Shown: positions 4,951 to 63,509, counted from the stretch's first letter. The stretch: 64,000 bases of DNA from Saccostrea cucullata (GCF_032062105.1 NW_026936221.1:1-64000); one strand, 5' to 3'. Numbers and translations: made by a program. The notes: generated by a model from the letters alone, not told the origin.

Positions 4951-5525
4951 TATATTGCAGTTCTACACTGTACGATAAACTTTATTGTAAATCTCATAAC
5001 TTGTTCTAAAAAATACAGATAATGAACAGCAATCGATTTTAAAAAAACTACAGCAAAATACATCTGTAAAAAGGACCAAAACAAAAAACAAAACACGGAC
5101 CCTTGGAAATTCTAGAGGTTTGGTTAGGTGCCTTAGAGGATTAAGCGTGAAATCCTTTTTGAAATTTTTTCTACAAAAATTAAAAATTCTGGAATTTTAA
5201 ATCACAGTCTGAACACTGGACACAGAGAACATACCTTGACACAATAGAAACTGACTTAGTGGAATAACAAACAACTATTTCATTGCAAAAGGCATATATC
5301 AAAATGCTACGAATTTTAAAATGTTTAATGCAGTCAAACAAAATTTCCATTACAACTAGTATTACAACTATACATTTTTAGCAATAAGCTTTATACAGCT
5401 ACATACATGTATATGCAACTAAGTCCGGTTTTTAAATTTCCAAAACAAAGCAAAAGATAAGAAGAGGAAAATTCCCACCATGATGTCTAAATGTTTCATT
5501 CAAAATATGTTGAAACAATCCTCCT

Positions 5526-6794
5526 TCACGTTAATGTTATTACTAGGATAAACCACTGAAAGAAAACAAAGATGTAAAAATAGTGCATCATCACTCTGTC
5601 ATATCCCTCCGCTAAAATCTTCCAAGTTACCTTCTTCTCTGCCTCAGTATCTTGCTCATCTTCGTTAGGAGCAATATATTTCTTTTCAAAACTTACATCC
5701 AGTTCCGCAGATTTGTCAGCGACTTTAGCCTTCTTTTTTCGTTTTCCACAGATGTCGTGCAAGAATCGGAGTCGAAGCACATTTAGCACAAAAACACTTT
5801 TACTTGAGACGTGAAAAGTAGGGTCTCTGAAATGAAAACGCATCGTTACAACAGCCAGAACGCTTATAAGTGTGCTCATCGACATTGTTATTATTAAGAA
5901 ATATGACATTAAAGACATTGGCTCTGAAGATTTAGGGATATTGTCACTTAGCAATGTCATAAACACGGCAAATGACAAGAAGATGGTTATAGCATAGGAT
6001 ACACGTTCTCCACTTTCCACTGGTAATGCAAACACTAGAGGGTTGAGTAAGGACAATAAAAGGATAGGGGCTAACATGTTTATGATGAAATAAAGAGATT
6101 TCCTCTTCAAAATTAGTCGAATTTCAATTAAATTATCAAAATGTTCGAGAACAGCCCGTTTCATAAGTGCCTTTTGTAATGTCCATTGGGCATTCGGGGA
6201 GTAGTACGTCGTATCCGCGACTGTCACACCATTCAAGGGGATTAATCTCACTTCATTTGGATAATATCCCCACGGTGATAAAGTGAATGAGCAAGTTTGT
6301 GTATCAAATGGAAATTTATACATATCAACGTTGCAAAGAGTCTGAATCAGACCAGCAGGTATCCATCTTGTAGTTCCGGTGTAAGAAATTCTCCCCAAGA
6401 AGTCTTCATCTCCAAGGGCTTCCATTTTATTTGCTGGGTCAATCAAAAAGATATTAGGAATCCATATTTTTTCCTTGGGAACTGGGATTTCTTCGATGTC
6501 ACCATAGTTGCTTGGTGTCCAAGTCAATCGAAAATCCTGCCAAAACATACCAAGGCCACAAACAATTGACAACACACCAGAAATCTCATCAAAATCATTT
6601 ATTGAAAAAATCATGGGCATAAGAGCGACCTCTAAAGCTTCTGAAAAGTTCGCTTTTGGTCGGATTTCTTTAGAGTAGTTCTTGAAAACCTCTTGAAGAA
6701 GTAATTCAGCGTCAGTATAAAGACCTTGAACATTTGTTAGTGATGTTCCTGAAATTAATAGCAAAAACAAACCCAAATTAGGAACTTTCTTCAT
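5526..6794 (-). CDS. G1: nAChR-like Cys-loop ligand-gated cation channel subunit, non-alpha (no vicinal cysteines), single coding exon, 422 aa
   Basis: Signal peptide (..TNVQG), NYSKEIRP, WIPNI, Cys loop CNVDMYKFPFDTQTC, LKRK pre-M1, M1-M3, GER before M2, DR before C-terminal M4. Confidence 0.96.
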   Translation of the reverse strand: MKKVPNLGLFLLLISGTSLTNVQGLYTDAELLLQEVFKNYSKEIRPKANFSEALEVALMPMIFSINDFDEISGVLSIVCGLGMFWQDFRLTWTPSNYGDIEEIPVPKEKIWIPNIFLIDPANKMEALGDEDFLGRISYTGTTRWIPAGLIQTLCNVDMYKFPFDTQTCSFTLSPWGYYPNEVRLIPLNGVTVADTTYYSPNAQWTLQKALMKRAVLEHFDNLIEIRLILKRKSLYFIINMLAPILLLSLLNPLVFALPVESGERVSYAITIFLSFAVFMTLLSDNIPKSSEPMSLMSYFLIITMSMSTLISVLAVVTMRFHFRDPTFHVSSKSVFVLNVLRLRFLHDICGKRKKKAKVADKSAELDVSFEKKYIAPNEDEQDTEAEKKVTWKILAEGYDRVMMHYFYIFVFFQWFILVITLT

Positions 6795-7489
6795 GATCCA
6801 CTCAAGCTGTCTATTTTGAAATTAAACAGCTATCTGCACACAAATGGTCGATCGTCGAATAATAGGTATGAAATGTAACTGCTGTGTTTCCGTTCACTCT
6901 AATGTTCAGTTCATTTTTTATGTTGATTAGTTTGAAATAGAATTTATAAACAGTCCTCGCTAAAATTCAGTTGTCTCACTGTATTTTAAAAAGAAAAACA
7001 TCCCATGAACAAATATTAATCAGCAATATTTGTTATCACGCTTCAAAAGATAAATGAAATAAGGTCCGACTTGCTGTAAATATTAGCACAGTACTAACGA
7101 AGTCCTCTATTAATGTCTTCACTAAATATCTTTTTTAAAATAAATTTGAATTAGGATGATCTTTTTGATATTTTCTATTTGGGGCGTGTGTAGCCAATGT
7201 TATAAGCCGAGGAATCTGAAATAAGATAAAACAAGGCATCCGACAAGTACTTTTATAGTTCAGCTTCGATCTGCTGCAGGCAAATTGTCTGTCCATCTAG
7301 CTAGGTATTCTATATGAGCCAATCAATGGTTATGATGTGATATCTGAGATTTGGAAGATTACAATTACATTCATAATTATATTGGACACATTTAAAAGGG
7401 TCCAAACCTCCAACAACAACAAAATCAGGACATCAGTAAAAAAAAATTATATAGCAAGATCTTGAGTGTCAAATATTCAAATGTTAAAT

Positions 7490-8780
7490 AGTAAATGTTC
7501 AACCAAGCCTCTTTCGTTACTCCTCTCTAAGATACTGACAGTAGTGAAGGAAAAATTCAAAAGTACTGTGCAACAATATACACAAGAAGTGGTGTGAATC
7601 AGATGTGGGACTCAAAAATTCTAAAGAACTTTTGGACTGGACAATTTGAAATCACAAGATTTTACCAAAATCAACAGCTTAAAAACTTACGACTTTTCTA
7701 CTTTATACACCACCATTCCCCATGATAAATTAAAACCCAGGCTTTTGGATATCACCGACAGCTGCTTTTTCAATAAAAATGGAACTCGTAAATTTACTAA
7801 CCTGGTCATTGGTCATTTGCAAAATTATTTGTTAAAACACATTCTGATTGCACACACAAATACTAGCACTCTGAATTGACATGAAAAAGATGCTTGAGTT
7901 TTGAATTGACAATATCTATGTGGTCTTTGGAGATCAGGTCTTCCAACAATCTATTGGAATTCCATGGGTACAAATTGCGCTCCATTATTAGCAGGCCCAC
8001 TTTATATTCATATGAAGCAGAATTTATGCAAAATCTTATGCGTGCAAAGAAGAAAACACTGGCTGTGGCCTTAAAACTCGACATTTAGATATATCGACGT
8101 ATTGCCAATTAACAATGGTAATTGTCGATACGATATACTTGTATCCTGGTGAGCCTGAGATAAAACATACGACAGAGTTTGACACATCTGTTTCATAGTT
8201 GGATATTTTACTTGAAAAAGACTTAATGGTAATCTAACAACCAAGTTCTATGGTAAACGCATTGACTTTAACTTTTCAATCGTCAAGTTCCCTTACTTAT
8301 GCAGCAATATACCTTCAATACCTTCATCACCTGCTTACTGGGTTTATATCTCTCAGTTGATTCGATACGCAAGACCTTGCTCTACGTATGAACAATTTCT
8401 AAGAAGAGCTATATTACTGACAAACATGTTGATGAAACAAGACTATCAGCAGTCTTGTTTAAAGTAATGATTTCGTAAGTTCTATGGTCGATGCATGACC
8501 TTGTCAGCAAATACAATTTATCATGGGACAAATGCTGACTAACGTTTTTCATACTTATTGTTGGTCCATTATACACTGAATAAACGATTAATTTTCCCGT
8601 TATAACCCGATAATGACAAGGAGCACACGGCGGGTGTGACGGTAGGCAGGGGATGCTCACTCCTCCATAGCATCTGATCCCACCTCTGATGTTTTGGAGG
8701 TCGTGTTTCCTCTGTTTCTATTTATGTATTGTTTTATGGGCTTTGATATTGAATACTGTTCGTTACCTCCATATTCTTTA
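7490..8780 (+). mobile_element. Degenerate 5'-truncated Penelope-like retroelement (RT and 3' end)
   Basis: Frameshifted RT motifs TYDFSTLYTTIPH, GIPMGTNCAP, YSYEAEF, FRYID, SQLIRYAR; conserved 3' motif cggcgggtgtgac...ctgatcccacctct. Confidence 0.88.
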
Positions 8781-46548: not shown

Positions 46549-47820
46549 TTACAGCAACGCCATTACAAGGACGCACCACTGTATGAAAACAAAGACGTAA
46601 AAATAGTACGTCAAAAGTCTGTCATATCCTTCCGCCAAATCCTTCCAAGTGACTTTTTCCTTTCCTTCTTCAAAATTTTGCGTATTGTTACCTTCAGCCA
46701 CATTACTCTTTTCAAAAACTACATCCACTTTCACAGATTTAGCTTTGACTTTAGTCTTGCTTTTTTTACAGACGCAGCACAGACATTGGAATCTCAAAAT
46801 ATTAAGCATAAAAACACAAGGACGTGAGACGGGTAACAGGGGATCTTTGAAATGAAAACGCATTGTAACAACAGCCAAAACGCATATCAATGTGCTCATA
46901 GCCATTGTTATGATTAAGAAGTAAGACATCAAAGACATTGGTTCTGAAGATTTGGGAATATTGTCACTGAGCAGTGTCATAAAAACGGCGAAAGACAAAA
47001 AGATTGTAATAGCATAAGATACACGTTCCCCACTTTCAATTGGTAAAACAAACACAAGAGGATTGAGTAAGGACAGAAGAAGGATTGGTGCTAACATGTT
47101 AATGACAAAATACAGAAACTTCCTCTCTAAAATTAATCCAATTTCAAGTAAATTATCATAATCAGCGAGTGCAGTCCGCTTCATCAATGTCCCTTTCAAC
47201 GTCCACTGAGCATTCTCGGAGTAGTAGCTTGTGACCACTGTCGTTAAGTTATTGTGAGGAATTAATCTTGCTTCAGATGGCGAATATCCCCACAAAGCTA
47301 TTGTGAAAGTGCACGATTGTGTGTCGAAAGGGAATCTGTACATGTCAACGTTGCACGAAGTCTGAAGTAGACCTGCTGGTACCCATGTCACTTGGCCAGA
47401 ATAAGAAATTCTGCCCAAGAAATCCTCGTCCCCAATGGCTTCCATCTTTTTGGCTGGGTCAAGCAAAAATATGTTTGGGACCCATAGTCTCTGTTTGGGA
47501 ACAGGGAGATGTTCGATGCCACCATAGTTGCTTGGTATCCAGGTCAGTCGAAAATCATGCCAAAACAACGTAAAACTACTAACAATGGACAGAACTCCTG
47601 AAACTTCATCGAAATCATTTACTGAGAAAACAATAGGGCTAACGGAGACCTCTAAAGTTTCTGACATGTTCTCTTTTGGTCGGATTTCTGTTGAGTAGTT
47701 CTGAAACACATCCTGGAGAAGTGATTTGGCGTCCGAATACGGATACCCATGGACAGATGTTGACAAAATTCCACTGATCAACAGCAGAGAAAAATAAAAA
47801 CAAGCAGATTCTACTTTCAT
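46549..47820 (-). CDS. G4: nAChR-like Cys-loop cation channel subunit, non-alpha, single coding exon, 423 aa
   Basis: Signal peptide, Cys loop CNVDMYRFPFDTQSC, 4 TM, GER-M2. Confidence 0.96.
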   Translation of the reverse strand: MKVESACFYFSLLLISGILSTSVHGYPYSDAKSLLQDVFQNYSTEIRPKENMSETLEVSVSPIVFSVNDFDEVSGVLSIVSSFTLFWHDFRLTWIPSNYGGIEHLPVPKQRLWVPNIFLLDPAKKMEAIGDEDFLGRISYSGQVTWVPAGLLQTSCNVDMYRFPFDTQSCTFTIALWGYSPSEARLIPHNNLTTVVTSYYSENAQWTLKGTLMKRTALADYDNLLEIGLILERKFLYFVINMLAPILLLSLLNPLVFVLPIESGERVSYAITIFLSFAVFMTLLSDNIPKSSEPMSLMSYFLIITMAMSTLICVLAVVTMRFHFKDPLLPVSRPCVFMLNILRFQCLCCVCKKSKTKVKAKSVKVDVVFEKSNVAEGNNTQNFEEGKEKVTWKDLAEGYDRLLTYYFYVFVFIQWCVLVMALL

Positions 47821-49744: not shown

Positions 49745-51019
49745 TCACACTGCCAATACCACTCCAAGGATAAGCCACTGTAGAAATACCAGAACGTAAA
49801 AGTAGTTCGTTAGTATTTTATCATATCCCTTCGCCAAAATTTTCCAAGTGACTTTTTCCTCTTTTTCATCATCTTCTATACTTTTGTCAACGGCTATTTT
49901 ACTTTTTACAAAAACTATATCCAATTTCGAGGACGTGTCAGTGACTTTAGACTTCTTTTCACGTTTTCTACAAATACGACATAGGCATCGGAGTCTCAAA
50001 ACATCCAGCATGAAAACACATTTACTTGAAACTGGCAATTTAGGATTTTTGAAATGGAGTTGCATTGTGACAACAGCCAAAACGCATATTAAAGTACTCA
50101 TAGACATCGTTACTATTAAAAAGTAAGACATTAAAGACATAGGCTCAGACGATTTAGGCATACTGTCGCTGAGCAAAGTCATAAATACGGCAAAAGATAA
50201 GAAGATGGTTATAGCATAGGACACACGTTCTCCACTTTCAACCGGTAATGCAAACACAAGAGGGTTGAGTAAGGACAATAAAAGAATTGGTGCTAACATG
50301 TTTATGACGAAATATAGGGATTTCCTTTTCAGAATCAACTGTAATTCGATTAAACTATCATATCCTCCAAGTGCAGATGGTTTCATAACAGTCTTTTCTA
50401 ACGTCCACTGAGCATTTGACGTGTAATAAGTCGTATCCATGGTTGTGAAATTGCTAAAAGGTGTTAATTTAGCTTCAAATTGTGAATATCCCCACAAAAC
50501 TAATGTAAAAGAGCATGTCTGTACATCAAAAGGAAATTTATACATGTCAACGTTGCACAAGGTCTGAATTAAACCCCCTGGTACCCATGACACCATACCC
50601 GAATTTGAAATTCTGCCTATGAAGTCGTTACTTCCAATTGCTTCCATTTTATTAGCTGGATCAATCAGAAAGACGTTAGGCACCCATAACATCTCTTTAG
50701 GCACAGGAATATCCTGGATGCCACCATAGTTGTTGGGTGTCCAGGACAACCGAAAATCATGCCATGTCAAGAAAAATCCACACACAATGGACATTACACC
50801 AGAGACTTCATCGAACTCATTCACTGAAAACATGAACGGCAAAAGAGAAACTTCTAACACTTCAGACAAGTTCTCTTTGGGGCGGATTTTTGTTGAGTAG
50901 TTCTTGAAGACATCCTGGAGAAGAAAATCGGCATCTGAATACATAAAGCCATATACAGATGTCAACGTTGTTCCAATGGTTAACACAAAACACCAACACA
51001 ACAAAGAATTCTTCGTCAT
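49745..51019 (-). CDS. G5: nAChR-like Cys-loop cation channel subunit, non-alpha, single coding exon, 424 aa
   Basis: Signal peptide, Cys loop CNVDMYKFPFDVQTC, 4 TM, GER-M2. Confidence 0.96.
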   Translation of the reverse strand: MTKNSLLCWCFVLTIGTTLTSVYGFMYSDADFLLQDVFKNYSTKIRPKENLSEVLEVSLLPFMFSVNEFDEVSGVMSIVCGFFLTWHDFRLSWTPNNYGGIQDIPVPKEMLWVPNVFLIDPANKMEAIGSNDFIGRISNSGMVSWVPGGLIQTLCNVDMYKFPFDVQTCSFTLVLWGYSQFEAKLTPFSNFTTMDTTYYTSNAQWTLEKTVMKPSALGGYDSLIELQLILKRKSLYFVINMLAPILLLSLLNPLVFALPVESGERVSYAITIFLSFAVFMTLLSDSMPKSSEPMSLMSYFLIVTMSMSTLICVLAVVTMQLHFKNPKLPVSSKCVFMLDVLRLRCLCRICRKREKKSKVTDTSSKLDIVFVKSKIAVDKSIEDDEKEEKVTWKILAKGYDKILTNYFYVLVFLQWLILGVVLAV

Positions 51020-52615: not shown

Positions 52616-53177
52616 AATAAGATGCGTTTGTTAAACACTATGCTCCTGGCGGCAACAAAGTTCGTAAAAAGCTATTTTTGGCATATAGGTCAGAGTCAAA
52701 GTCATGCATTGACCTTGATATCATTTGAAAAGGCTTAATGAGTGGAGTAGGAGACACATAAAAATATGTCCCTAACTTTATTAGTTCAAAAGTTATGGCG
52801 AAGGACAAAGTTTGAAGACAAAAAAATATTTTTAGCATAAGGGTCCGAGTCAAGGTCACAAAGTCATTGTTCTTGGTATTACTGGAAAGAACTTAATTGA
52901 TAGAGTATGCATACCAAATTTAAAATCTTTATCTTCAAAAGTTACGGCGAAGGTTAACATTTGCAGAAAAAATTCTATTTTAGCATATAGGTCACAGTCT
53001 AGGTCATGAAGTCATTGGTCTCATTTGAAAGAACTTTATTAGTGGAGTATGAATACCAAATGTGAAGTTTCTATCTTTCATGATTCAAAAGGTATAGCGA
53101 AGGTTAATTTTGCAGACAAATGGACAGACAGGAAAAAACAATATACTCCTCGGATCTCTTGATCCGGACGCATAAAA
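52616..53177 (-). mobile_element. HINE inserted 16 bp downstream of the G6 stop codon
   Basis: Same family as 44456-45025; empty site downstream of G7 at ~61305. Confidence 0.8.
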
Positions 53178-53193
53178 GTCTGAGAAATTTGCA

Positions 53194-54474
53194 TCAAAAT
53201 TTAACAGATATAGCAAATGATACCCAGAAAAAGACAGTAAAAAAATAGAAGTAGTACATTAATACTCTATCATAGGCACGCGCCACACTTTTATAAGTGG
53301 TAACATTGTCCAATTCATCACTTTCTCTGTTTTCCGATTTACTAGTTCCTACACTAGTCTTCACAAACACTACATCTTTGACTTCATTTTCTGCACCAAT
53401 CCTAGCAGATCCGGATTTTTTCTTCTTACAACAATTAAATATAAAATGGAGTTGAAGAAGTTTTAAAACATTCCGTAATTTTCTAGAAACTTTTGCTTCT
53501 GGTTCTTTTAAATGAAGATACATAGTGAATATTGTTAAAATAGTCATGAGTGTGCTCAAACACATCGTAAAAATCAAAAAGTAAGACAGAAGAGCCATAG
53601 GTTCTGATGATTTTGGCATGTTCTCACTGAGTAAAGTCATAAATACAGCAAAAGATAAGAAAATCGTAATTGCATAGGAAATGCGTTCTCCGCTATCCAT
53701 AGGTAAAACAAACACCAATGGATTCAGAAAGGATAGGAGAAGAATCGGGGCCAACATGTTGAGAATGAAATATAGAGACTTTCTTTTCAGAGTCATCGTG
53801 ATGCGTATCCGACACTGGTATTGTCCAAGATTTGACTGGGCCATGTGAGTCTTTATCAAATCCCACTGGCCATTTTTGTTGTAGAAAGAAGTGTCTACAT
53901 TAGTGACATTATTCCATGGAAGCAAGATGGCATCTTCAGGGGTATATCCCCAGAGCATAAAATTAAGCGAGCATTCCTGTGTGTCGAACGGAAACCTGAA
54001 CATGTCAATGCTACAAATGGAAGTAAGTAGTCCACCTGGCACCCATGACATGTTGCCATCCGAATACATCCTTCCGAGAAAATCGCCATCTCCGATAGCT
54101 TCCATTTTATTGGCAGTGTCTATCAGAAACAGCCTTGGGGCCCAAATCTTTTTGAGTGGAACGGGCAAGTTGTCCAGTCCTCCGTAAGTGCTCGGCGACC
54201 ACGCGAGGCGAAAATCATTCCATTCCAGTCTGAAGGCGGCTACCACTGACAGTATTCCGGATATTTCATCTAAATTGTTCAGTGATATTAGATAAACATA
54301 AATGCCCACTTTTGTTGGTTCGGACAGATTCGTCTGAGGACGTAAATCAGGATTATAATTCCCAAATAAGTTTTGGTAAAGAGAGGAACTGTCTGAAAAC
54401 ATTGCTCCCTGAACTCGTGTTCCAAATATAATGCAAATGAGAAACATGGAAGAAATAAACCACATCGTCTTCAT
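53194..54474 (-). CDS. G6: nAChR-like Cys-loop cation channel subunit (second subfamily), non-alpha, single coding exon, 426 aa from first ATG
   Basis: ORF-track start at 54498 is TTG; first ATG is 54474 (MKTMWF); Cys loop CSIDMFRFPFDTQEC, 4 TM, GER-M2. Confidence 0.95.
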   Translation of the reverse strand: MKTMWFISSMFLICIIFGTRVQGAMFSDSSSLYQNLFGNYNPDLRPQTNLSEPTKVGIYVYLISLNNLDEISGILSVVAAFRLEWNDFRLAWSPSTYGGLDNLPVPLKKIWAPRLFLIDTANKMEAIGDGDFLGRMYSDGNMSWVPGGLLTSICSIDMFRFPFDTQECSLNFMLWGYTPEDAILLPWNNVTNVDTSFYNKNGQWDLIKTHMAQSNLGQYQCRIRITMTLKRKSLYFILNMLAPILLLSFLNPLVFVLPMDSGERISYAITIFLSFAVFMTLLSENMPKSSEPMALLSYFLIFTMCLSTLMTILTIFTMYLHLKEPEAKVSRKLRNVLKLLQLHFIFNCCKKKKSGSARIGAENEVKDVVFVKTSVGTSKSENRESDELDNVTTYKSVARAYDRVLMYYFYFFTVFFWVSFAISVKF

Positions 54475-54547
54475 CTGTGTCTTCGTAAAATTCTCCAATC
54501 TAATAACTCCTGATGTTATTTGTCAGACAGGCAGAATAAATAGGACA

Positions 54548-54555
54548 TTTATATA
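54548..54555 (-). promoter_or_regulatory. Candidate TATA box of G6
   Basis: TATATAAA ~75 bp upstream of ATG, conserved at 62680-62687 for G7; TATA-like also at 37050-37057 (G3) and 51082-51088 (G5). Weak evidence in AT-rich DNA. Confidence 0.35.
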
Positions 54556-55093
54556 ATCAACTGCATATTTCAAAATCAGATCAAATGTTAAAGCCCGCTT
54601 TAACATTGATCCCAATCAATGTGAGGATTAATGAAAAAACACCCAGAGGTGACCATGCCAAGTAGAAGGCATGAAAACAAAAAGTGTAAGGTCATATACC
54701 TGAACATTTAAAGGAAATAAGAAACAAATTGTACTTAATTGATAGTGTAAAGAGATTAATTCCTTGTGAAAGATCTTAAGTCAAAGTTTTTACAACATTA
54801 AAATCATATAGCATTTGAAATATTCATGTTTAAGAAATAAGGGTCATTTCACATTTGTTGTAGCTTAAATTGTAATCTTATTTCATTAAATGTCCCAATT
54901 TCGCTATCATTTGAGAAGCGAAAGCGGAAGATCTAATTTTAATTAGATTGCTACTATTATAACCTTTTACATTTTCAAGTTCCAAAACAAAAATAAAACA
55001 TGGGTCGTTGTATTTATATATCCAACTAAAATATGCATTTATATGCTTTCAATAAGAAATACATAAATCTTCTTAGTTGATCAGTTTTAAATA

Positions 55094-58382: not shown

Positions 58383-58883
58383 AACAAGAGGCCCAGGGGC
58401 CACATCGCTCACCTGAGCAAATCGGCTAGGAAAAAGCACAGATCAGATCAGAACAGAAAAGTTCACTGAAGGGAGGGAGGCTTGAATTTTAATACTACTT
58501 GAGATTGTCTTCATATTAATACAGCATATGACTTTGCTGTTCTTGATAAAAAGATTTTTTGAAAACATTTTCTTCCTATATATAACTTCATAATAATTTG
58601 AATTTGATTCCTCATTGTTTCCCTCTCTACCCCAAAGGGCCATGATTTGAATAAATTTATATCTTCAATACATGAGGCTGCTTAAATGTCAATATGACTA
58701 AACATAGCTTTTCTGTTCTTAGGATTTTTTCCTTTATTTTTCTAAGTAAAACTTTGATCCACCATTGTGGCCCCATCCTACCCTTGGGGGTTATGATTTG
58801 AACAAATTTAAATCTACACTACCCGAAAATGCTTCCATATAAATACTAGTATTACTAAACACGGTTTTGCTATTCTTGGGAAG

Positions 58884-58923
<40 letters not shown>

Positions 58924-59618
58924 TGTAAAACTTGGATCCCCCATTGTGGCCCACCTATCCCTGGGGGTTATGATGTGAACAAACTAGAATCTATACTACC
59001 TGAGGATGATTCCACATAAGTAAATTATATCTAATCATGGCTTTGAAGTACTTGAGAAGACGATTTTAAAATATTTCCCTATCTAGTCCAATGTAGAACT
59101 TTGATCAGCCATTTTGCCCCTCCCCAACCCCCAGGGGTCATGATTTGAATAAACTTGAATCTACACTACCTGACGATGGTTTAACATAAATTTCATCTTT
59201 CCTGGCCCAGTGATTCCTGAGAAGAAGATTTTTAAAGATTTTTCCTATACATTCCTATATAAAATTTTGATTGGCCATTGCGGAACCACCCTACCCACAG
59301 GGGTCATGATTTGAACAAACTTGAATCCACGCTACATGAGGATGCTTCCACATGAGTTTCATCTTTCCTGGCCCATTGAGTCTTGAGAAGAAGATTTTTA
59401 AAGATTTTCCTTATATACTCCTATGTAAAACTTTGATCAGCCATTGTGGCCCCAACCTACTGGGGGTCATGATTTGAACAAACTTGAATCTACAATACCT
59501 GAGGATGCTTCCACATGAGTTTCATCTTTCCTGGCCTAGTGGTTCTTGAGAAGAAGATTTTTGAAAAATGCCATTAATGTTTCACTAATTCATAATTATC
59601 TCCCCTTGGAAATGGGCC

Positions 59619-59655
<37 letters not shown>

Positions 59656-59758
59656 TAAGGATACTTTGTGGCAAGTTTGGTTGAAATTGCCCCAGTAGTT
59701 CTTGAAAAGAAGATGAAAATGTGAAAAATTTATGACGATGCCGACAACGCCAACGGAA

Positions 59759-59790
<32 letters not shown>

Positions 59791-59804
59791 GGCTTAGTTG
59801 AGCT
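58383..59804 (-). mobile_element. HINE/pearl-type element with diverged ~166-bp repeats and a (TA)n tract
   Basis: Same termini as 28135-29770 (aacaagaggccc..gctcacctgag; agctcacttgagcc); absent from the paralogous spacer at ~51850. Confidence 0.85.
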
Positions 59805-60014
59805 GCAAACTAAAAACTGTGCATCAGTTACCCAAAACAAATGAATGGAAAAGGCCTAAATTTGAAGAAATGGCCGGGGTGTCACTTATTTTTCCGATAT
59901 ATGTATATGTACATTATTAATTATTCAATATACTGTAGAAAACTTTTTGAATGTGCCCCCTCAAAAGTTATGTCTGATAATTTTGTTTTCACCAAAACTT
60001 TTGCTTCATGAGGG

Positions 60015-61108: not shown

Positions 61109-61325
61109 TTAATAAAAATTAATGTCTTGTACTTAAATAGATATTTACATAAGGCGAGGATGATGTGAACAAAATAACATTATCATATAACTTTCATGTG
61201 AGAAATATGTCAAAAATCATATATCATTTACATGAGTAGCAGTGCATCTTTTAAGGAATTCTATATAACGAAAATAAATTACATATGTGTGTTGAACAGT
61301 TTTAAAAACGTCTATGAAACATTCA

Positions 61326-62606
61326 TCAAAATTGAACCGAAACAGCGTATGATATCCAGAAAAAGAAAGTAAAGAAATAGAAGTAGTACATTAATACTCT
61401 ATCATAGGCACGAGCCACACTTTTATAAGTCGTAACATTGTCTAATTCATCACTTTCTCTGTTTTCAAGTTTAGTAGTCCCTACACAAGTCTTCACAAAC
61501 ACTACATCTTTGACTTCATTTTCTGCACCAACGCTAGCAGATCCTGATTTTTTCTTCTTACAACAATTAAATATAAAACGGAGTTGAAGAAGTTTTAAAA
61601 CATTCAGTACTTTTCTAGAAACTTTTGCTTCTGGTTCTTTTAAATGAAGACACATAGTGAATATTGTTAAAATAGTCATGAGTGTGCTCAAACACATCGT
61701 AAAAATCAAAAAGTAAGAAAGAAGAGCCATAGGTTCTGATGATTTTGGCATGTTGTCACTGAGTAGAGTCATAAATACAGCAAAAGATAAGAAAATCGTA
61801 ATTGCATAGGAAATGCGTTCACCGCTATCCATAGGTAAAACGAACACCAATGGATTTAGAAGGGATAGGAGAAGAATTGGGGCCAACATGTTGAGAATGA
61901 AATATAGAGACTTTCTTTTCAGAGTCATCGTGATGCGTATCAGAGTCTGGGATGGACCAAGATTTGACTGGGCCAAGTAAGTCTTCATCAAATCCCACTG
62001 GCCATTTTTGTTGAAAAAAGAAGTGTCTACATTTGTAACATTATTCCATGGAAGCAAGATGGCATCTTCAGAAGTATATCCCCAGAGCGTAAACTTAAGT
62101 GAGCATTCCTGCGTGTCAAACGGAAATCTGAACATGTCAATGCTACATTGGGAAGTAAGTAGTCCACCTGGCACCCATGACATGGTGCCATCAGAATACA
62201 TCCTTCCGAGAAAGTCGCCATCTCCGATAGCTTCCATTTTATTGGCAGTGTCTATCAGAAACAGCCTTGGGGCCCAAATCTTTTTGAGTGGAACGGGCAA
62301 GTTGTCCAGTCCTCCGTAAGTGCTCGGCGACCACGCGAGGCGAAAATCATTCCATTCCAGTCTGAAGGCGGCTACCACTGACAGTATTCCGGATATTTCA
62401 TCTAAATTGTTCAGTGATATTAGATAAACATAAATGCCCACTTTTGTTGGTTCTGACAGATTCGACTGAGGGCGTAAATCTGGATTATAATTCCCAAATA
62501 AGTTTTGGTAAAGAGAGGAACTATCTGAAAACATTGCTCCCTGAACACTTGTTCCAAATAAAATATAAATGAAAAACACTGAAGAAATAAACCACATCGT
62601 CTTCAT
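61326..62606 (-). CDS. G7: nAChR-like Cys-loop cation channel subunit, close paralogue of G6, 426 aa from first ATG
   Basis: ORF-track start at 62630 is TTG; first ATG is 62606; Cys loop CSIDMFRFPFDTQEC, 4 TM, GER-M2. Confidence 0.95.
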   Translation of the reverse strand: MKTMWFISSVFFIYILFGTSVQGAMFSDSSSLYQNLFGNYNPDLRPQSNLSEPTKVGIYVYLISLNNLDEISGILSVVAAFRLEWNDFRLAWSPSTYGGLDNLPVPLKKIWAPRLFLIDTANKMEAIGDGDFLGRMYSDGTMSWVPGGLLTSQCSIDMFRFPFDTQECSLKFTLWGYTSEDAILLPWNNVTNVDTSFFNKNGQWDLMKTYLAQSNLGPSQTLIRITMTLKRKSLYFILNMLAPILLLSLLNPLVFVLPMDSGERISYAITIFLSFAVFMTLLSDNMPKSSEPMALLSYFLIFTMCLSTLMTILTIFTMCLHLKEPEAKVSRKVLNVLKLLQLRFIFNCCKKKKSGSASVGAENEVKDVVFVKTCVGTTKLENRESDELDNVTTYKSVARAYDRVLMYYFYFFTFFFWISYAVSVQF

Positions 62607-63509
62607 CTGTGTCCTCGTAAAATTCTCCAATCTAATAAATCTGGAAGTTATTTGTCAGACACGCAGGTTAAATAGGACATTTATATAATCAACTACATAT
62701 TTTAAGATCAGATCACATGTTAAAGCACGCTTTGACATTGATCCCAATCAATGTGAGGATTAATGAAAAACACCTAGAAGTGACCGTGCGAAGTAGAAGG
62801 AATGAAAACAAAAAGTTTAAGGTCATATACTTGAACATTTAAAGGAAATAAGAAAAAAAATGTACTAAATTGATAGTGTAAAGAGATTAATTCCTGGTTA
62901 GAGATCTTAAGTCAAAAGTTTTTACAACATATAGCATTTGAGATGTTCATGTTTAAGAAATAAGGGTCATTTCACATTTGTTGTTGCTTAAATTGCAATC
63001 TTTTAAATTAATGTCCCGATTCCGCTTTCATTTCAGAAGTGTTAACGGAACATCTAATTTTAATTAGATTACTACTTTTATAACTGTTTACATTTTCAAG
63101 TTCCAAAACAAAAATAAAACATGGGTCATTGTATTTATATATCCAACTAAATTATGCATTTCTATGCTTTCAATAAGAAATGCATAAATCCACATGTAAC
63201 GCATAGACAATTTTTTGTTGTTTCATTGAAAGAATTTCACAATTTAGACACAAAAACACATGTCAAAGCACTTGATTTGACACAAAATGCTCACATGGTT
63301 GGAAACTGAGTGGGCAAACAAAATTACCAAATGTCACTAAATCTGACTCTGTTTCTGTAACCCAAGTCCTGGGTTCTTCGCCAATTTTCTTTCAGACAAC
63401 CTTTGTAGAAATACACGTTATCTGCATGAAACTGTTGGATGTTCAAAAATATATCTAGTTTATTGGTAAGCCCAATATATAAACCTTTTCTTCGTTGATC
63501 AGTTTTAAA

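What the first reader, a model, noticed from the sequence alone, without database searches (positions are those of the whole stretch)
53809..53856. Burst of amino-acid change in loop C between near-identical G6 and G7
Over 16 codons (53809-53856 vs 61941-61988; IKTHMAQSNLGQYQCR vs MKTYLAQSNLGPSQTL) I count 9 nucleotide differences, 8 non-synonymous and 1 synonymous. Loop B also differs (NFMLWGYTPE vs KFTLWGYTSE), while the first ~110 mature residues differ at one site. The G1/G2 pair shows the same targeting: loop C AVLEHF vs AALGDL, loop B YYPNE vs YAPSE, loop E TTRWI vs NMRWV, loop D LGMFWQ vs FGMSWR. Pattern expected from diversifying selection on ligand specificity (inference).
Basis: partly seen in the sequence, partly recalled or inferred. 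Interest (0 to 1): 0.7.

Follow-up and report, generated by a model that had tools for sequence, protein, structure and literature searches.

The report
Oyster receptor duplicates rework ligand loops
In an oyster cluster of duplicated, intron-free nicotinic-type receptor genes, two loops on one face of the predicted binding pocket changed about five times faster in the newest copies than on older branches, likely because new copies are retuned to different ligands, although the rate only reaches the neutral level and does not prove positive selection.

Summary
The counts are right: 9 nucleotide differences, 8 non-synonymous, 7 amino acids in 16 codons, more clustered than chance (scan p 0.002-0.04). 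The genes are two of seven intronless, tandem, non-alpha nAChR-like genes of an oyster (nearest named proteins Saccostrea). They keep the Cys-loop and a cation-type pore motif but lack the vicinal cysteines and all canonical aromatic-box residues except W149.

The inference of diversifying selection is only partly supported. dN/dS above 1 is not shown by any test (window p=0.37; M7/M8 p=0.28; branch-site p 0.19-1.0). The near-identical background is a 239-bp identical run, most likely gene conversion. G2 is broken by a 35-bp duplication in loop C.

What holds up: principal-face loops B+C run at omega 1.06 on the four young branches against 0.22 on older ones (p<0.0001; G1/G2 alone p=0.004). 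Complementary loops and the rest of the ectodomain do not accelerate, and 0 of 60 saturation simulations reproduce it. Best reading: episodic retuning of ligand specificity after duplication, in an array homogenised by conversion (0.5). Local relaxation and an unseen conversion donor remain open. Known family, known kind of process.

The parts
53194..54474 (-). G6: intact single-exon nAChR-like gene, 426 aa (ATG at 54474)
   Evidence: ORF; Pfam PF02931 + PF02932; AlphaFold model with four TM helices; nAChR fold
61326..62606 (-). G7: intact paralogue of G6, 92% amino-acid identity, 73 nucleotide differences in 1278, omega 0.29
53809..53856 (-). Q218 about Y190, Q220 about Y198, R222 = D200 position of alpha subunits
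   Evidence: the Y190/Y198 register is inferred by counting from aligned anchors
61941..61988 (-). Matching window in G7 (P218, S219, T221, L222)
   Evidence: a P-S-Q-S form is read from an 11-letter loose end in run X5
53935..53964 (-). G6 loop B, codons 171-180 (N171 = alpha K145, W175 = W149, P179 = G153); G7 counterpart 62067-62096
   Evidence: alignments to PDB chains; coordinates
54083..54321 (-). 239-bp run identical in G6 and G7 (62215-62453), codons 52-130, likely gene-conversion tract; includes loops D and A
   Evidence: 0 of 100,000 permutations; silent sites alone p=0.007
53174..55069 (.). Duplicated block holding G6, matching 61306-63190 at 92.5%
   Evidence: self-BLASTN
5526..6794 (-). 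G1: intact paralogue, young partner of G2
17309..18612 (-). G2: frameshifted copy as assembled; stop directly after loop C
17913..17982 (-). Exact 35-bp tandem duplication (17913-17947 and 17948-17982) across G2 loop C
35693..36967 (-). G3: intact older paralogue
46549..47820 (-). G4: intact older paralogue
49745..51019 (-). G5: intact older paralogue

Best explanation
G6 and G7 are young tandem duplicates of an oyster non-alpha Cys-loop receptor subunit whose principal-face loops B and C diverged at about the neutral rate while the rest of the ectodomain stayed constrained, likely because selection retuned ligand recognition after duplication while gene conversion likely kept other parts of the copies alike. 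Shown: the gene anatomy, the clustering, the young-branch acceleration confined to loops B+C, the identical tract and uneven silent divergence. Inferred: that the cause is positive selection (an average of 1.06 over 21 codons that include invariant W175 and G176 would need some sites above 1), that the tracts are conversion, and that the proteins form cation channels gated by something other than acetylcholine. The changes hit positions known to tune binding and gating in alpha subunits: G6 has N171+R222 and G7 has K171+L222 at the K145/D200 positions, with Q/P218 near Y190 and P/S179 at G153. The ligand is unidentified; an environmental or paracrine small molecule is the likeliest class by analogy with octopus chemotactile receptors.
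For: Branch-by-partition codon model on the ectodomain, tract masked: loops B+C omega 1.06 on G1, G2, G6, G7 vs 0.22 on older branches (p<0.0001); G6/G7 alone 1.03 vs 0.27 (p=0.008); G1/G2 alone 1.10 vs 0.27 (p=0.004). Controls on the same four branches: loops D/E/F/G 0.37 vs 0.29 (p=0.55), rest of ectodomain 0.11 vs 0.13 (p=0.47), so the copies are not relaxed gene-wide. Whole-gene version 1.09 vs 0.27, p=0.0002. 0 of 60 simulations with constrained plus neutral sites and no branch effect reached omega 1.06 or the observed 2dlnL of 19.7 (maximum 9.8). Pocket loops run twice as fast as the rest of the ectodomain over all seven genes (0.34 vs 0.16) and in G1-G5 alone (0.40 vs 0.17, p=1e-7). A third close paralogue, P0002, differs from each of G6 and G7 at 9 of 16 window residues. 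Protein-level contrast: pocket/rest rate ratio 2.0 in 7 paralogue pairs, 1.55 in 9 orthologue pairs, 1.16 in within-gene variants of 11 gene groups (0.69 without singletons; OR 1.75 p=0.06, OR 2.9 p=0.04), whereas the intracellular loop behaves as simply relaxed (2.3 in variants, 2.2 in orthologues). Conversion: 239-bp run; in TM1-3 silent difference G1/G2 0.37 exceeds G2/G3 0.29 although G1/G2 are 0.12-0.16 apart in the ectodomain; P0117 joins a G1-type loop E to G2-type loops B and C. Position mapping; role of K145-D200-Y190 from passages of PMC11655062.
Against: No test puts omega significantly above 1: young-branch B+C vs 1 p=0.84; the 18 B+C sites that vary in 22 outside homologues give 1.23, p=0.5; M1a=M2a; M7/M8 p=0.28, M8a/M8 p=0.10; 0 of 6 branch-site tests significant (p 0.19-1.0). 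A preset list of 15 canonical pocket positions gives only 0.50 in the pooled young pairs. Two other young pairs show just 1 of 16 window differences each (P0025/P0119, P0022/P0023), and without G6/G7 loop C's share of differences in paralogue pairs does not exceed that in orthologue pairs (p=0.40). For loops B+C alone the variant-vs-divergence contrast is absent (OR 1.37, p=0.48), and the whole-pocket contrast fades without the window's pairs (p=0.10-0.18). One of the four young branches (G2) is a broken gene as assembled. Conversion violates the single tree all my models assume. Expression is not shown: 2 reads under 95% alike in 1,921 million letters of one raw RNA run.
Confidence: 0.5

Rival explanations
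1. Local relaxation. In young redundant copies the principal face is no longer needed (for example the copy serves as a complementary or structural subunit in a heteropentamer), so loops B and C drift at the neutral rate with no change of specificity being selected.
For: Every estimate for B+C on young branches is statistically equal to 1 (1.02-1.27). The subunits lack the vicinal cysteines and most aromatic-box residues. Within-gene variants are raised in B+C too (ratio 1.96 with singletons). G2 is broken.
Against: The same loops are constrained on older branches (0.22), and W175, G176 and Y177 stay fixed in all seven genes. With 10 or 15 of 21 sites fully neutral, simulations averaged only 0.51 and 0.67 and never reached 1.06, so nearly every site would have to be free. 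The complementary face and core do not relax.
Confidence: 0.25
2. Mosaic ancestry. The loop B-C segment of G6 or G7 came by gene conversion or unequal crossing-over from an older allele or a paralogue outside the window, so the burst is old divergence set in a recently homogenised gene.
For: Silent divergence is very uneven: G6/G7 0.05, 0.18, 0.10, 0.16 over four segments; G1/G2 0.12-0.37; G1/G2 flanks 2.9% upstream and 15.8% downstream. Loop C types recur in other organisms' runs: P-S-Q-S-L in X5 and R-A-A-L-A in X1. Run X1 has G7's letter at 4 of 4 differing sites in one contig and at 1 of 8 in another. P0117 and P0118 are G1/G2 mosaics.
Against: No donor in the window: after the partner gene (9 mismatches) the best match to either 48-mer has 20 or more. 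P0002 is not the donor: G6 and G7 agree against it at 12 sites between 178 and 217. An old tract should bring silent changes, but the window has 1 in 10.7 silent sites. If loop types persist across organisms while the flanks homogenise, that itself suggests selection.
Confidence: 0.2
3. Chance or assembly error: a window picked after the fact, or base-calling errors in a long-read contig.
For: Nine differences only; scan-corrected p up to 0.04; the window was chosen by eye; the contig is 70.9 kb and G2's exact 35-bp duplication could be an assembly slip.
Against: Replicated in G1/G2 and P0002. All G6/G7 differences are substitutions in frame. L222, K171 and T141 of G7 are read in three other runs.
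Confidence: 0.05

Closest known systems
Expanded intronless tandem nAChR genes of bivalves (Jiao et al. 2019, PMC6896357)
   Same: Single-exon genes in a tandem array, oyster-specific relatives, loss of canonical ACh-binding residues; that paper already proposes that LBD diversity broadens ligand range.
   Different: Its main text has 0 occurrences of 'selection', 'conversion' and 'nonsynonymous'. The loop-specific young-branch acceleration and the conversion mosaics are not described there; supplements were not seen.
Cephalopod chemotactile receptors CRT1/CRB1 (as summarised in PMC11526382)
   Same: nAChR-derived, intronless, tandem, canonical pocket residues replaced, fastest change near the pocket.
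   Different: CRs show significant positively selected sites and have measured ligands; here no test exceeds omega 1 and no ligand is known. In the fold comparison CRB1 (Z 21.2, rmsd 4.5, 307 aligned) and CRT1 (Z 19.9, rmsd 4.7, 290 aligned) rank below nAChR and 5-HT3 chains (Z 25.9-26.7, rmsd 6.1-7.6, 349-367 aligned); clade membership was not tested.
Vertebrate alpha-type nAChR subunits (alpha1, alpha3, alpha6, alpha7)
   Same: Best sequence matches in the PDB (E about 1e-53); Cys-loop C154-C168, W149, pre-M1 Arg, G-E-R motif and L9' in M2 are kept.
   Different: No vicinal Cys pair; loop C five residues shorter than alpha6/alpha3; Y93 is I, W55 is A/G/S, Y190 and Y198 positions are Q/P/D/H/G, D200 is L or R.
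Alvinella Alpo4 (PDB 8bx5)
   Same: Lophotrochozoan nAChR-like channel; third-best match to the G6 ectodomain (E 3e-27).
   Different: 27% identity only; that it does not respond to ACh is recalled, not checked here.

Membership tests
Cys-loop pLGIC, nAChR superfamily | Ligand-binding domain plus transmembrane domain | tested here: met
   Pfam PF02931 and PF02932 above cut-off in G1, G6, G7, the 3 of 7 genes scanned; four TM helices in the G6 model
Cys-loop pLGIC, nAChR superfamily | Two cysteines separated by 13 residues | tested here: met
   C154 and C168 in 7 of 7 genes, invariant in 43 of 43 aligned proteins
Cys-loop pLGIC, nAChR superfamily | Cation-type M1-M2 motif and L9' gate | tested here: met
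   G-E-R and L273 in 7 of 7; GEK-type motif read as cation-selective in PMC13174522 section 3.4.3; selectivity itself not measured
Cys-loop pLGIC, nAChR superfamily | Assembles as a pentameric ligand-gated channel | not testable with these tools
   needs expression and recording
Alpha-type (ACh-binding) nAChR subunit | Vicinal cysteines in loop C | tested here: not met
   0 of 7 genes; G6 has a single C221
Alpha-type (ACh-binding) nAChR subunit | Aromatic box Y93, W149, Y190, Y198 (+W55) | tested here: not met
   only W149 (W175) kept; positions 118, 80, 218, 220 are non-aromatic in 7 of 7
Bivalve intronless tandem nAChR expansion (Jiao 2019) | No intron in the coding sequence | tested here: met
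   6 of 7 are single ORFs; G2 is colinear apart from the 35-bp duplication; UTR introns not tested
Bivalve intronless tandem nAChR expansion (Jiao 2019) | Tandem array with lineage-specific relatives | tested here: met
   7 genes on one strand within 57 kb; every named hit among the 36 best is from an oyster
Cephalopod chemotactile receptors / CR-like clade | Intronless, tandem, ACh-binding residues replaced | tested here: met
Cephalopod chemotactile receptors / CR-like clade | Falls in the CR or CR-like clade | not tested
   no CR sequences were in hand for a tree; the fold ranking is not a clade test
Cephalopod chemotactile receptors / CR-like clade | Significant positively selected sites in the pocket | tested here: inconclusive
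   site and branch-site tests not significant on 7 sequences with recombination; power to detect such sites was not simulated
Cephalopod chemotactile receptors / CR-like clade | Expressed in sensory cells and gated by environmental ligands | not testable with these tools
   one raw RNA run gave 2 divergent reads
   point estimates 0.35-0.44 over the whole tree and 0.57-2.5 in young pairs, none significantly above 1
   no donor in the window or in P0002; no genome held, so other paralogues were not searched

The most novel reading that the evidence does not exclude
This oyster array is a chemosensory receptor family derived from nAChRs in parallel with octopus chemotactile receptors and built like a constant channel with a variable sensor: gene conversion keeps the pore and scaffold uniform and shuffles pocket faces between neighbours, while selection holds distinct loop B/C types, some shared between species, that set different non-ACh ligands. 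G6 and G7 would be a natural two-loop swap experiment, with a positive charge placed at either the K145 or the D200 position.
Probability: 0.25. Interest if true: 0.7.

Novelty: new member of a known kind. Interest (0 to 1): 0.38.

Why it matters
Bivalves carry 99-217 nAChR-like genes whose ligands are unknown (PMC6896357). If young duplicates are retuned at loops B and C, near-identical pairs such as G6/G7 (14 ectodomain differences, 7 of them in the 21 residues of loops B+C) are the cheapest route to finding those ligands and to testing whether nAChR-to-chemoreceptor transitions happened outside cephalopods. The result is also a caution: gene conversion in such arrays distorts pairwise dN/dS.

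Tried and rejected
No whole genome is held, so genome-wide paralogues could not be screened. A metagenome scan for related loci matched 177 stretches and confirmed none, so codon models rest on the 7 window genes. Earlier-findings look-ups by place, sequence and words returned nothing.

I first read 54106 (G6=G7, all three contig runs differ) as proof of conversion and dropped this: of 35 rows checked, 13 show G6=G7 against the runs and 12 of them lie outside the tract (5 of the 40 printed rows lie upstream of the ATG and were left out; 152 rows were not printed). The runs cannot polarise the G6/G7 changes. P0002 as a conversion donor was rejected. A peak of silent divergence around loops B/C was not seen (1 silent difference in the window; 0.18 in codons 131-232 vs 0.10-0.16 downstream). 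A GENECONV-like scan on 119 silent codons gave no pair significant after correction for 21 pairs (best G1/G3, p=0.01 uncorrected). Signal peptide and M4 each hold 5 non-synonymous changes per 16 codons, fewer than loop C.

The CR chains are absent from the top 60 sequence hits and the printed Foldseek rows, which tests nothing. Searches timed out: the G1-G5 rows for loops E, F, G and the single-branch rows are missing; one search repeated the pair-level tests on the ectodomain only. The tree is the quick one. No complex prediction was run.

Full report
1. What is in the window. Seven nAChR-like genes lie on the minus strand: G1 5526-6794, G2 17309-18612, G3 35693-36967, G4 46549-47820, G5 49745-51019, G6 53194-54474, G7 61326-62606. 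Six are single ORFs of 422-426 codons. G2 has an exact 35-bp tandem duplication (17913-17982) over loop C and stops right after it; whether this is real or an assembly slip is untested. Pfam finds the ligand-binding and transmembrane domains in the three genes scanned. Every named hit among the 36 best homologues is an oyster protein, the closest being Saccostrea cucullata XP_062594914 (P0002, 85%). The G6 model (mean pLDDT 72.7) matches nAChR and 5-HT3 chains best.

2. The observation. It is as described: 9 differences, 8 non-synonymous, 7 residues. Gene-wide there are 73 differences in 1278 bases (34.5 silent, 38.5 replacement; omega 0.29). The window is the densest one, with scan-corrected p between 0.002 and 0.04 depending on the region shuffled. 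The 8:1 ratio is not unusual where 78% of sites are non-synonymous (p=0.37), and 8 replacements against the 4.6-5.4 expected at the silent rate give p=0.08-0.16. The contrast with the N-terminal half is partly made by a 239-bp identical run (codons 52-130) that also lacks silent differences (p=0.007 on silent sites alone), which points to gene conversion.

3. Where the changes fall. Alignment to PDB alpha subunits gives W175=W149, I118=Y93, A80=W55, N/K171=K145, P/S179=G153 and R/L222=D200. Counting from these anchors puts 218 near Y190 and 220 at Y198 (inferred). Loop C has no vicinal cysteines and is five residues shorter than in alpha6/alpha3; in the model it is a two-residue turn. These are therefore not ACh-binding alpha subunits by sequence. 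M2 keeps G-E-R and L9' in all seven and the TM region has omega 0.10, as expected of working cation channels (inference). G6 has N171+R222 and G7 has K171+L222 at the positions of the K145-D200 salt bridge that loop C's Y190 approaches during activation (PMC11655062, passages). The importance of G153 for agonist affinity is from the search listing of PMC3536520. G6 also has an N-glycosylation sequon at 141 and an unpaired C221 that G7 lacks.

4. Tests of selection (own GY94/F3x4 code; 7 genes; G2 read through its duplication). Random-site models: M1a=M2a, M7/M8 p=0.28, M8a/M8 p=0.10. Fixed partitions: pocket loops 0.34, rest of ectodomain 0.16, TM 0.10, intracellular loop 0.38, signal 0.51; loop B 0.35, loop C 0.44 (approximate interval 0.29-0.61), both below 1. 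Young pairs: loops B+C 1.21 in G6/G7 with the tract masked, 1.02 in G1/G2, 1.11 pooled (p=0.71 against 1; p=0.003 against 0.44); a preset list of 15 canonical pocket positions gives 0.50. Branch-by-partition (ectodomain, tract masked): B+C 1.06 on the four young branches vs 0.22 (p<0.0001), G6/G7 1.03 vs 0.27 (p=0.008), G1/G2 1.10 vs 0.27 (p=0.004); loops D/E/F/G 0.37 vs 0.29 (p=0.55; G1/G2 alone 0.64 vs 0.28, p=0.06); rest 0.11 vs 0.13. Simulations with 10 or 15 neutral sites of 21 and no branch effect gave means of 0.51 and 0.67, and 0 of 60 reached 1.06. Restricting to the 18 B+C sites that vary among 22 outside homologues gives 1.23 (p=0.5 against 1). Branch-site model A: 0 of 6 significant. 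So loops B+C accelerate about five-fold, specifically, to a rate that cannot be told from neutral.

5. Outside evidence at protein level. P0002 differs from each of G6 and G7 at 9 of 16 window residues, against 29-32 of 277 over residues 46-322. One search compared within-gene variants (11 gene groups, 78 sequences; at most 15 members were listed per cluster; fragments, frameshifted or misplaced members and a 10-sequence group duplicating another gene were dropped), 7 paralogue pairs and 9 orthologue pairs; the labels of pairs with unnamed members are assumed from the quick tree and identity. Pocket/rest ratios are 1.16 (0.69 without singletons), 2.0 and 1.55; OR 1.75 (p=0.06) or 2.9 (p=0.04). 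The intracellular loop is 2.3 in variants and 2.2 in orthologues, the pattern of plain relaxation, but 1.0 in paralogues. Against: for B+C alone OR is 1.37 (p=0.48); without the window's pairs p is 0.10-0.18; two other young pairs have 1 of 16 window differences; without G6/G7, paralogue and orthologue pairs do not differ in loop C's share (p=0.40).

6. Conversion in the array. Besides the 239-bp run, TM1-3 silent difference is 0.37 for G1/G2 but 0.29 for G2/G3 and 0.35 for G1/G3, reversing the ectodomain order. P0117 has G1's loop E and G2's loops B and C; P0118 is intermediate in loops D and C. M. gigas P0143/P0144 differ at 50 of 208 ectodomain residues and 0 of 90 in TM1-3. A formal silent-site scan was not significant after correction. 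Laying four runs on G6 (40 of 192 difference rows and 18 of 110 pieces printed) shows G7's L222, K171 and T141 in X1, X5 and X6, a P-S-Q-S-L loop C in X5 and an R-A-A-L-A loop C in X1 (read from 11- and 15-letter loose ends, one contig each). S221 is one step from both C (G6) and T (G7). No donor for either loop C lies in the window, but paralogues elsewhere could not be searched. The raw RNA run X14 gave 2 reads, both under 95% alike, so expression is not shown.

7. How it most likely works. Duplication by unequal crossing-over makes a redundant copy. Conversion keeps overwriting pore and scaffold segments. Copies that persist are likely those that gained a different principal face, so loops B and C change quickly early and then slow, giving about 1 on young branches and 0.2 on old ones (0.5). 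Rivals: local relaxation of a dispensable principal face (0.25), import of an older segment (0.2), chance or assembly error (0.05). The ligand is unknown; a non-ACh small molecule is inferred from the pocket, and a sensory role only by analogy.

8. Relation to what is known. The family and its intronless tandem expansion are described in PMC6896357 (read: parts 1-3 of 6 of the text, the Discussion, and term passages), which already suggests broadened ligand range but has no selection or conversion analysis in its main text. Pocket-directed positive selection is reported for octopus CRs (passages of the review PMC11526382; the primary papers were not read). PMC13174522 (passages and sections 3.4.3-3.4.4) reports a CR-like clade that includes bivalves and pocket substitutions in several clades; its supplements, and those of PMC6896357, were not seen and may place or describe this clade. 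Searches listed no paper testing selection on bivalve nAChR loops; the library lacks most subscription papers.

9. Verdict. Observation confirmed; interpretation partly supported. A real, loop-specific acceleration in young duplicates of a known gene family, short of proof of positive selection and confounded by conversion. Novelty: new member of a known kind. Interest 0.38.

Noticed in passing
window 17913-17982: G2's exact 35-bp duplication ends the frame just before beta10, leaving signal peptide plus nearly the whole ectodomain. Pseudogene, assembly slip or a truncated secreted product; not resolved.
   Followed up: partly
G1/G2/G3, codons 233-322 (e.g. G1/G3 59-bp identical run from codon 267): TM1-3 silent divergence contradicts the gene tree (G2 closer to G3 than to G1), suggesting conversion of the pore region among older paralogues.
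   Followed up: partly
P0117, P0118 (S. cucullata, other contigs): Recombinant-looking G1/G2 copies: P0117 pairs a G1-type complementary loop E with G2-type principal loops B and C.
   Followed up: partly
P0143/P0144 (M. gigas); P0015/P0030 (O. edulis): Paralogues with 50 of 208 and 65 of 206 ectodomain differences but 0 and 2 of 90 in TM1-3: constant pore, variable ectodomain.
   Followed up: partly
window 54052-54054 and 53812-53814: G6 has an N-M-S sequon in loop E and a free cysteine at 221 beside the pocket; G7 and P0002 have neither.
   Followed up: no
G6/G7 residue 82 (loop D) and 135 (loop E): Arg three residues before the invariant loop D Trp, the position that binds ligand carboxylates in glycine and GABA-A receptors and is also Arg in 5-HT3A (recalled); R135 is fixed in all seven genes. 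A weak hint at an anionic ligand.
   Followed up: no
codon 217: G/E change occurs in parallel in G1 vs G2 and in P0002 vs G6/G7, with A in run X1; P0002's R-A-A-L-E resembles the G1/G2 loop C motifs.
   Followed up: no
P0002 residues 1-130: The database model has an unrelated N-terminus in place of the signal peptide, resembling a tRNA methyltransferase segment (recalled); probably a fused gene prediction.
   Followed up: no
window 6795-7800 vs 18613-19620; 4964-5525 vs 16762-17308: G1/G2 flanks differ by 2.9% upstream and 15.8% downstream, another sign of segments of different age.
   Followed up: no
window 26356-27410, 28245-29505, 58539-59816: Tandem satellite arrays with offsets of about 147 and 166 bp; the 166-bp type occurs in two places.
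   Followed up: no
window 19463-19855 (+): 130-aa ORF with a motif resembling a retroelement reverse transcriptase (recalled), upstream of G2.
   Followed up: no
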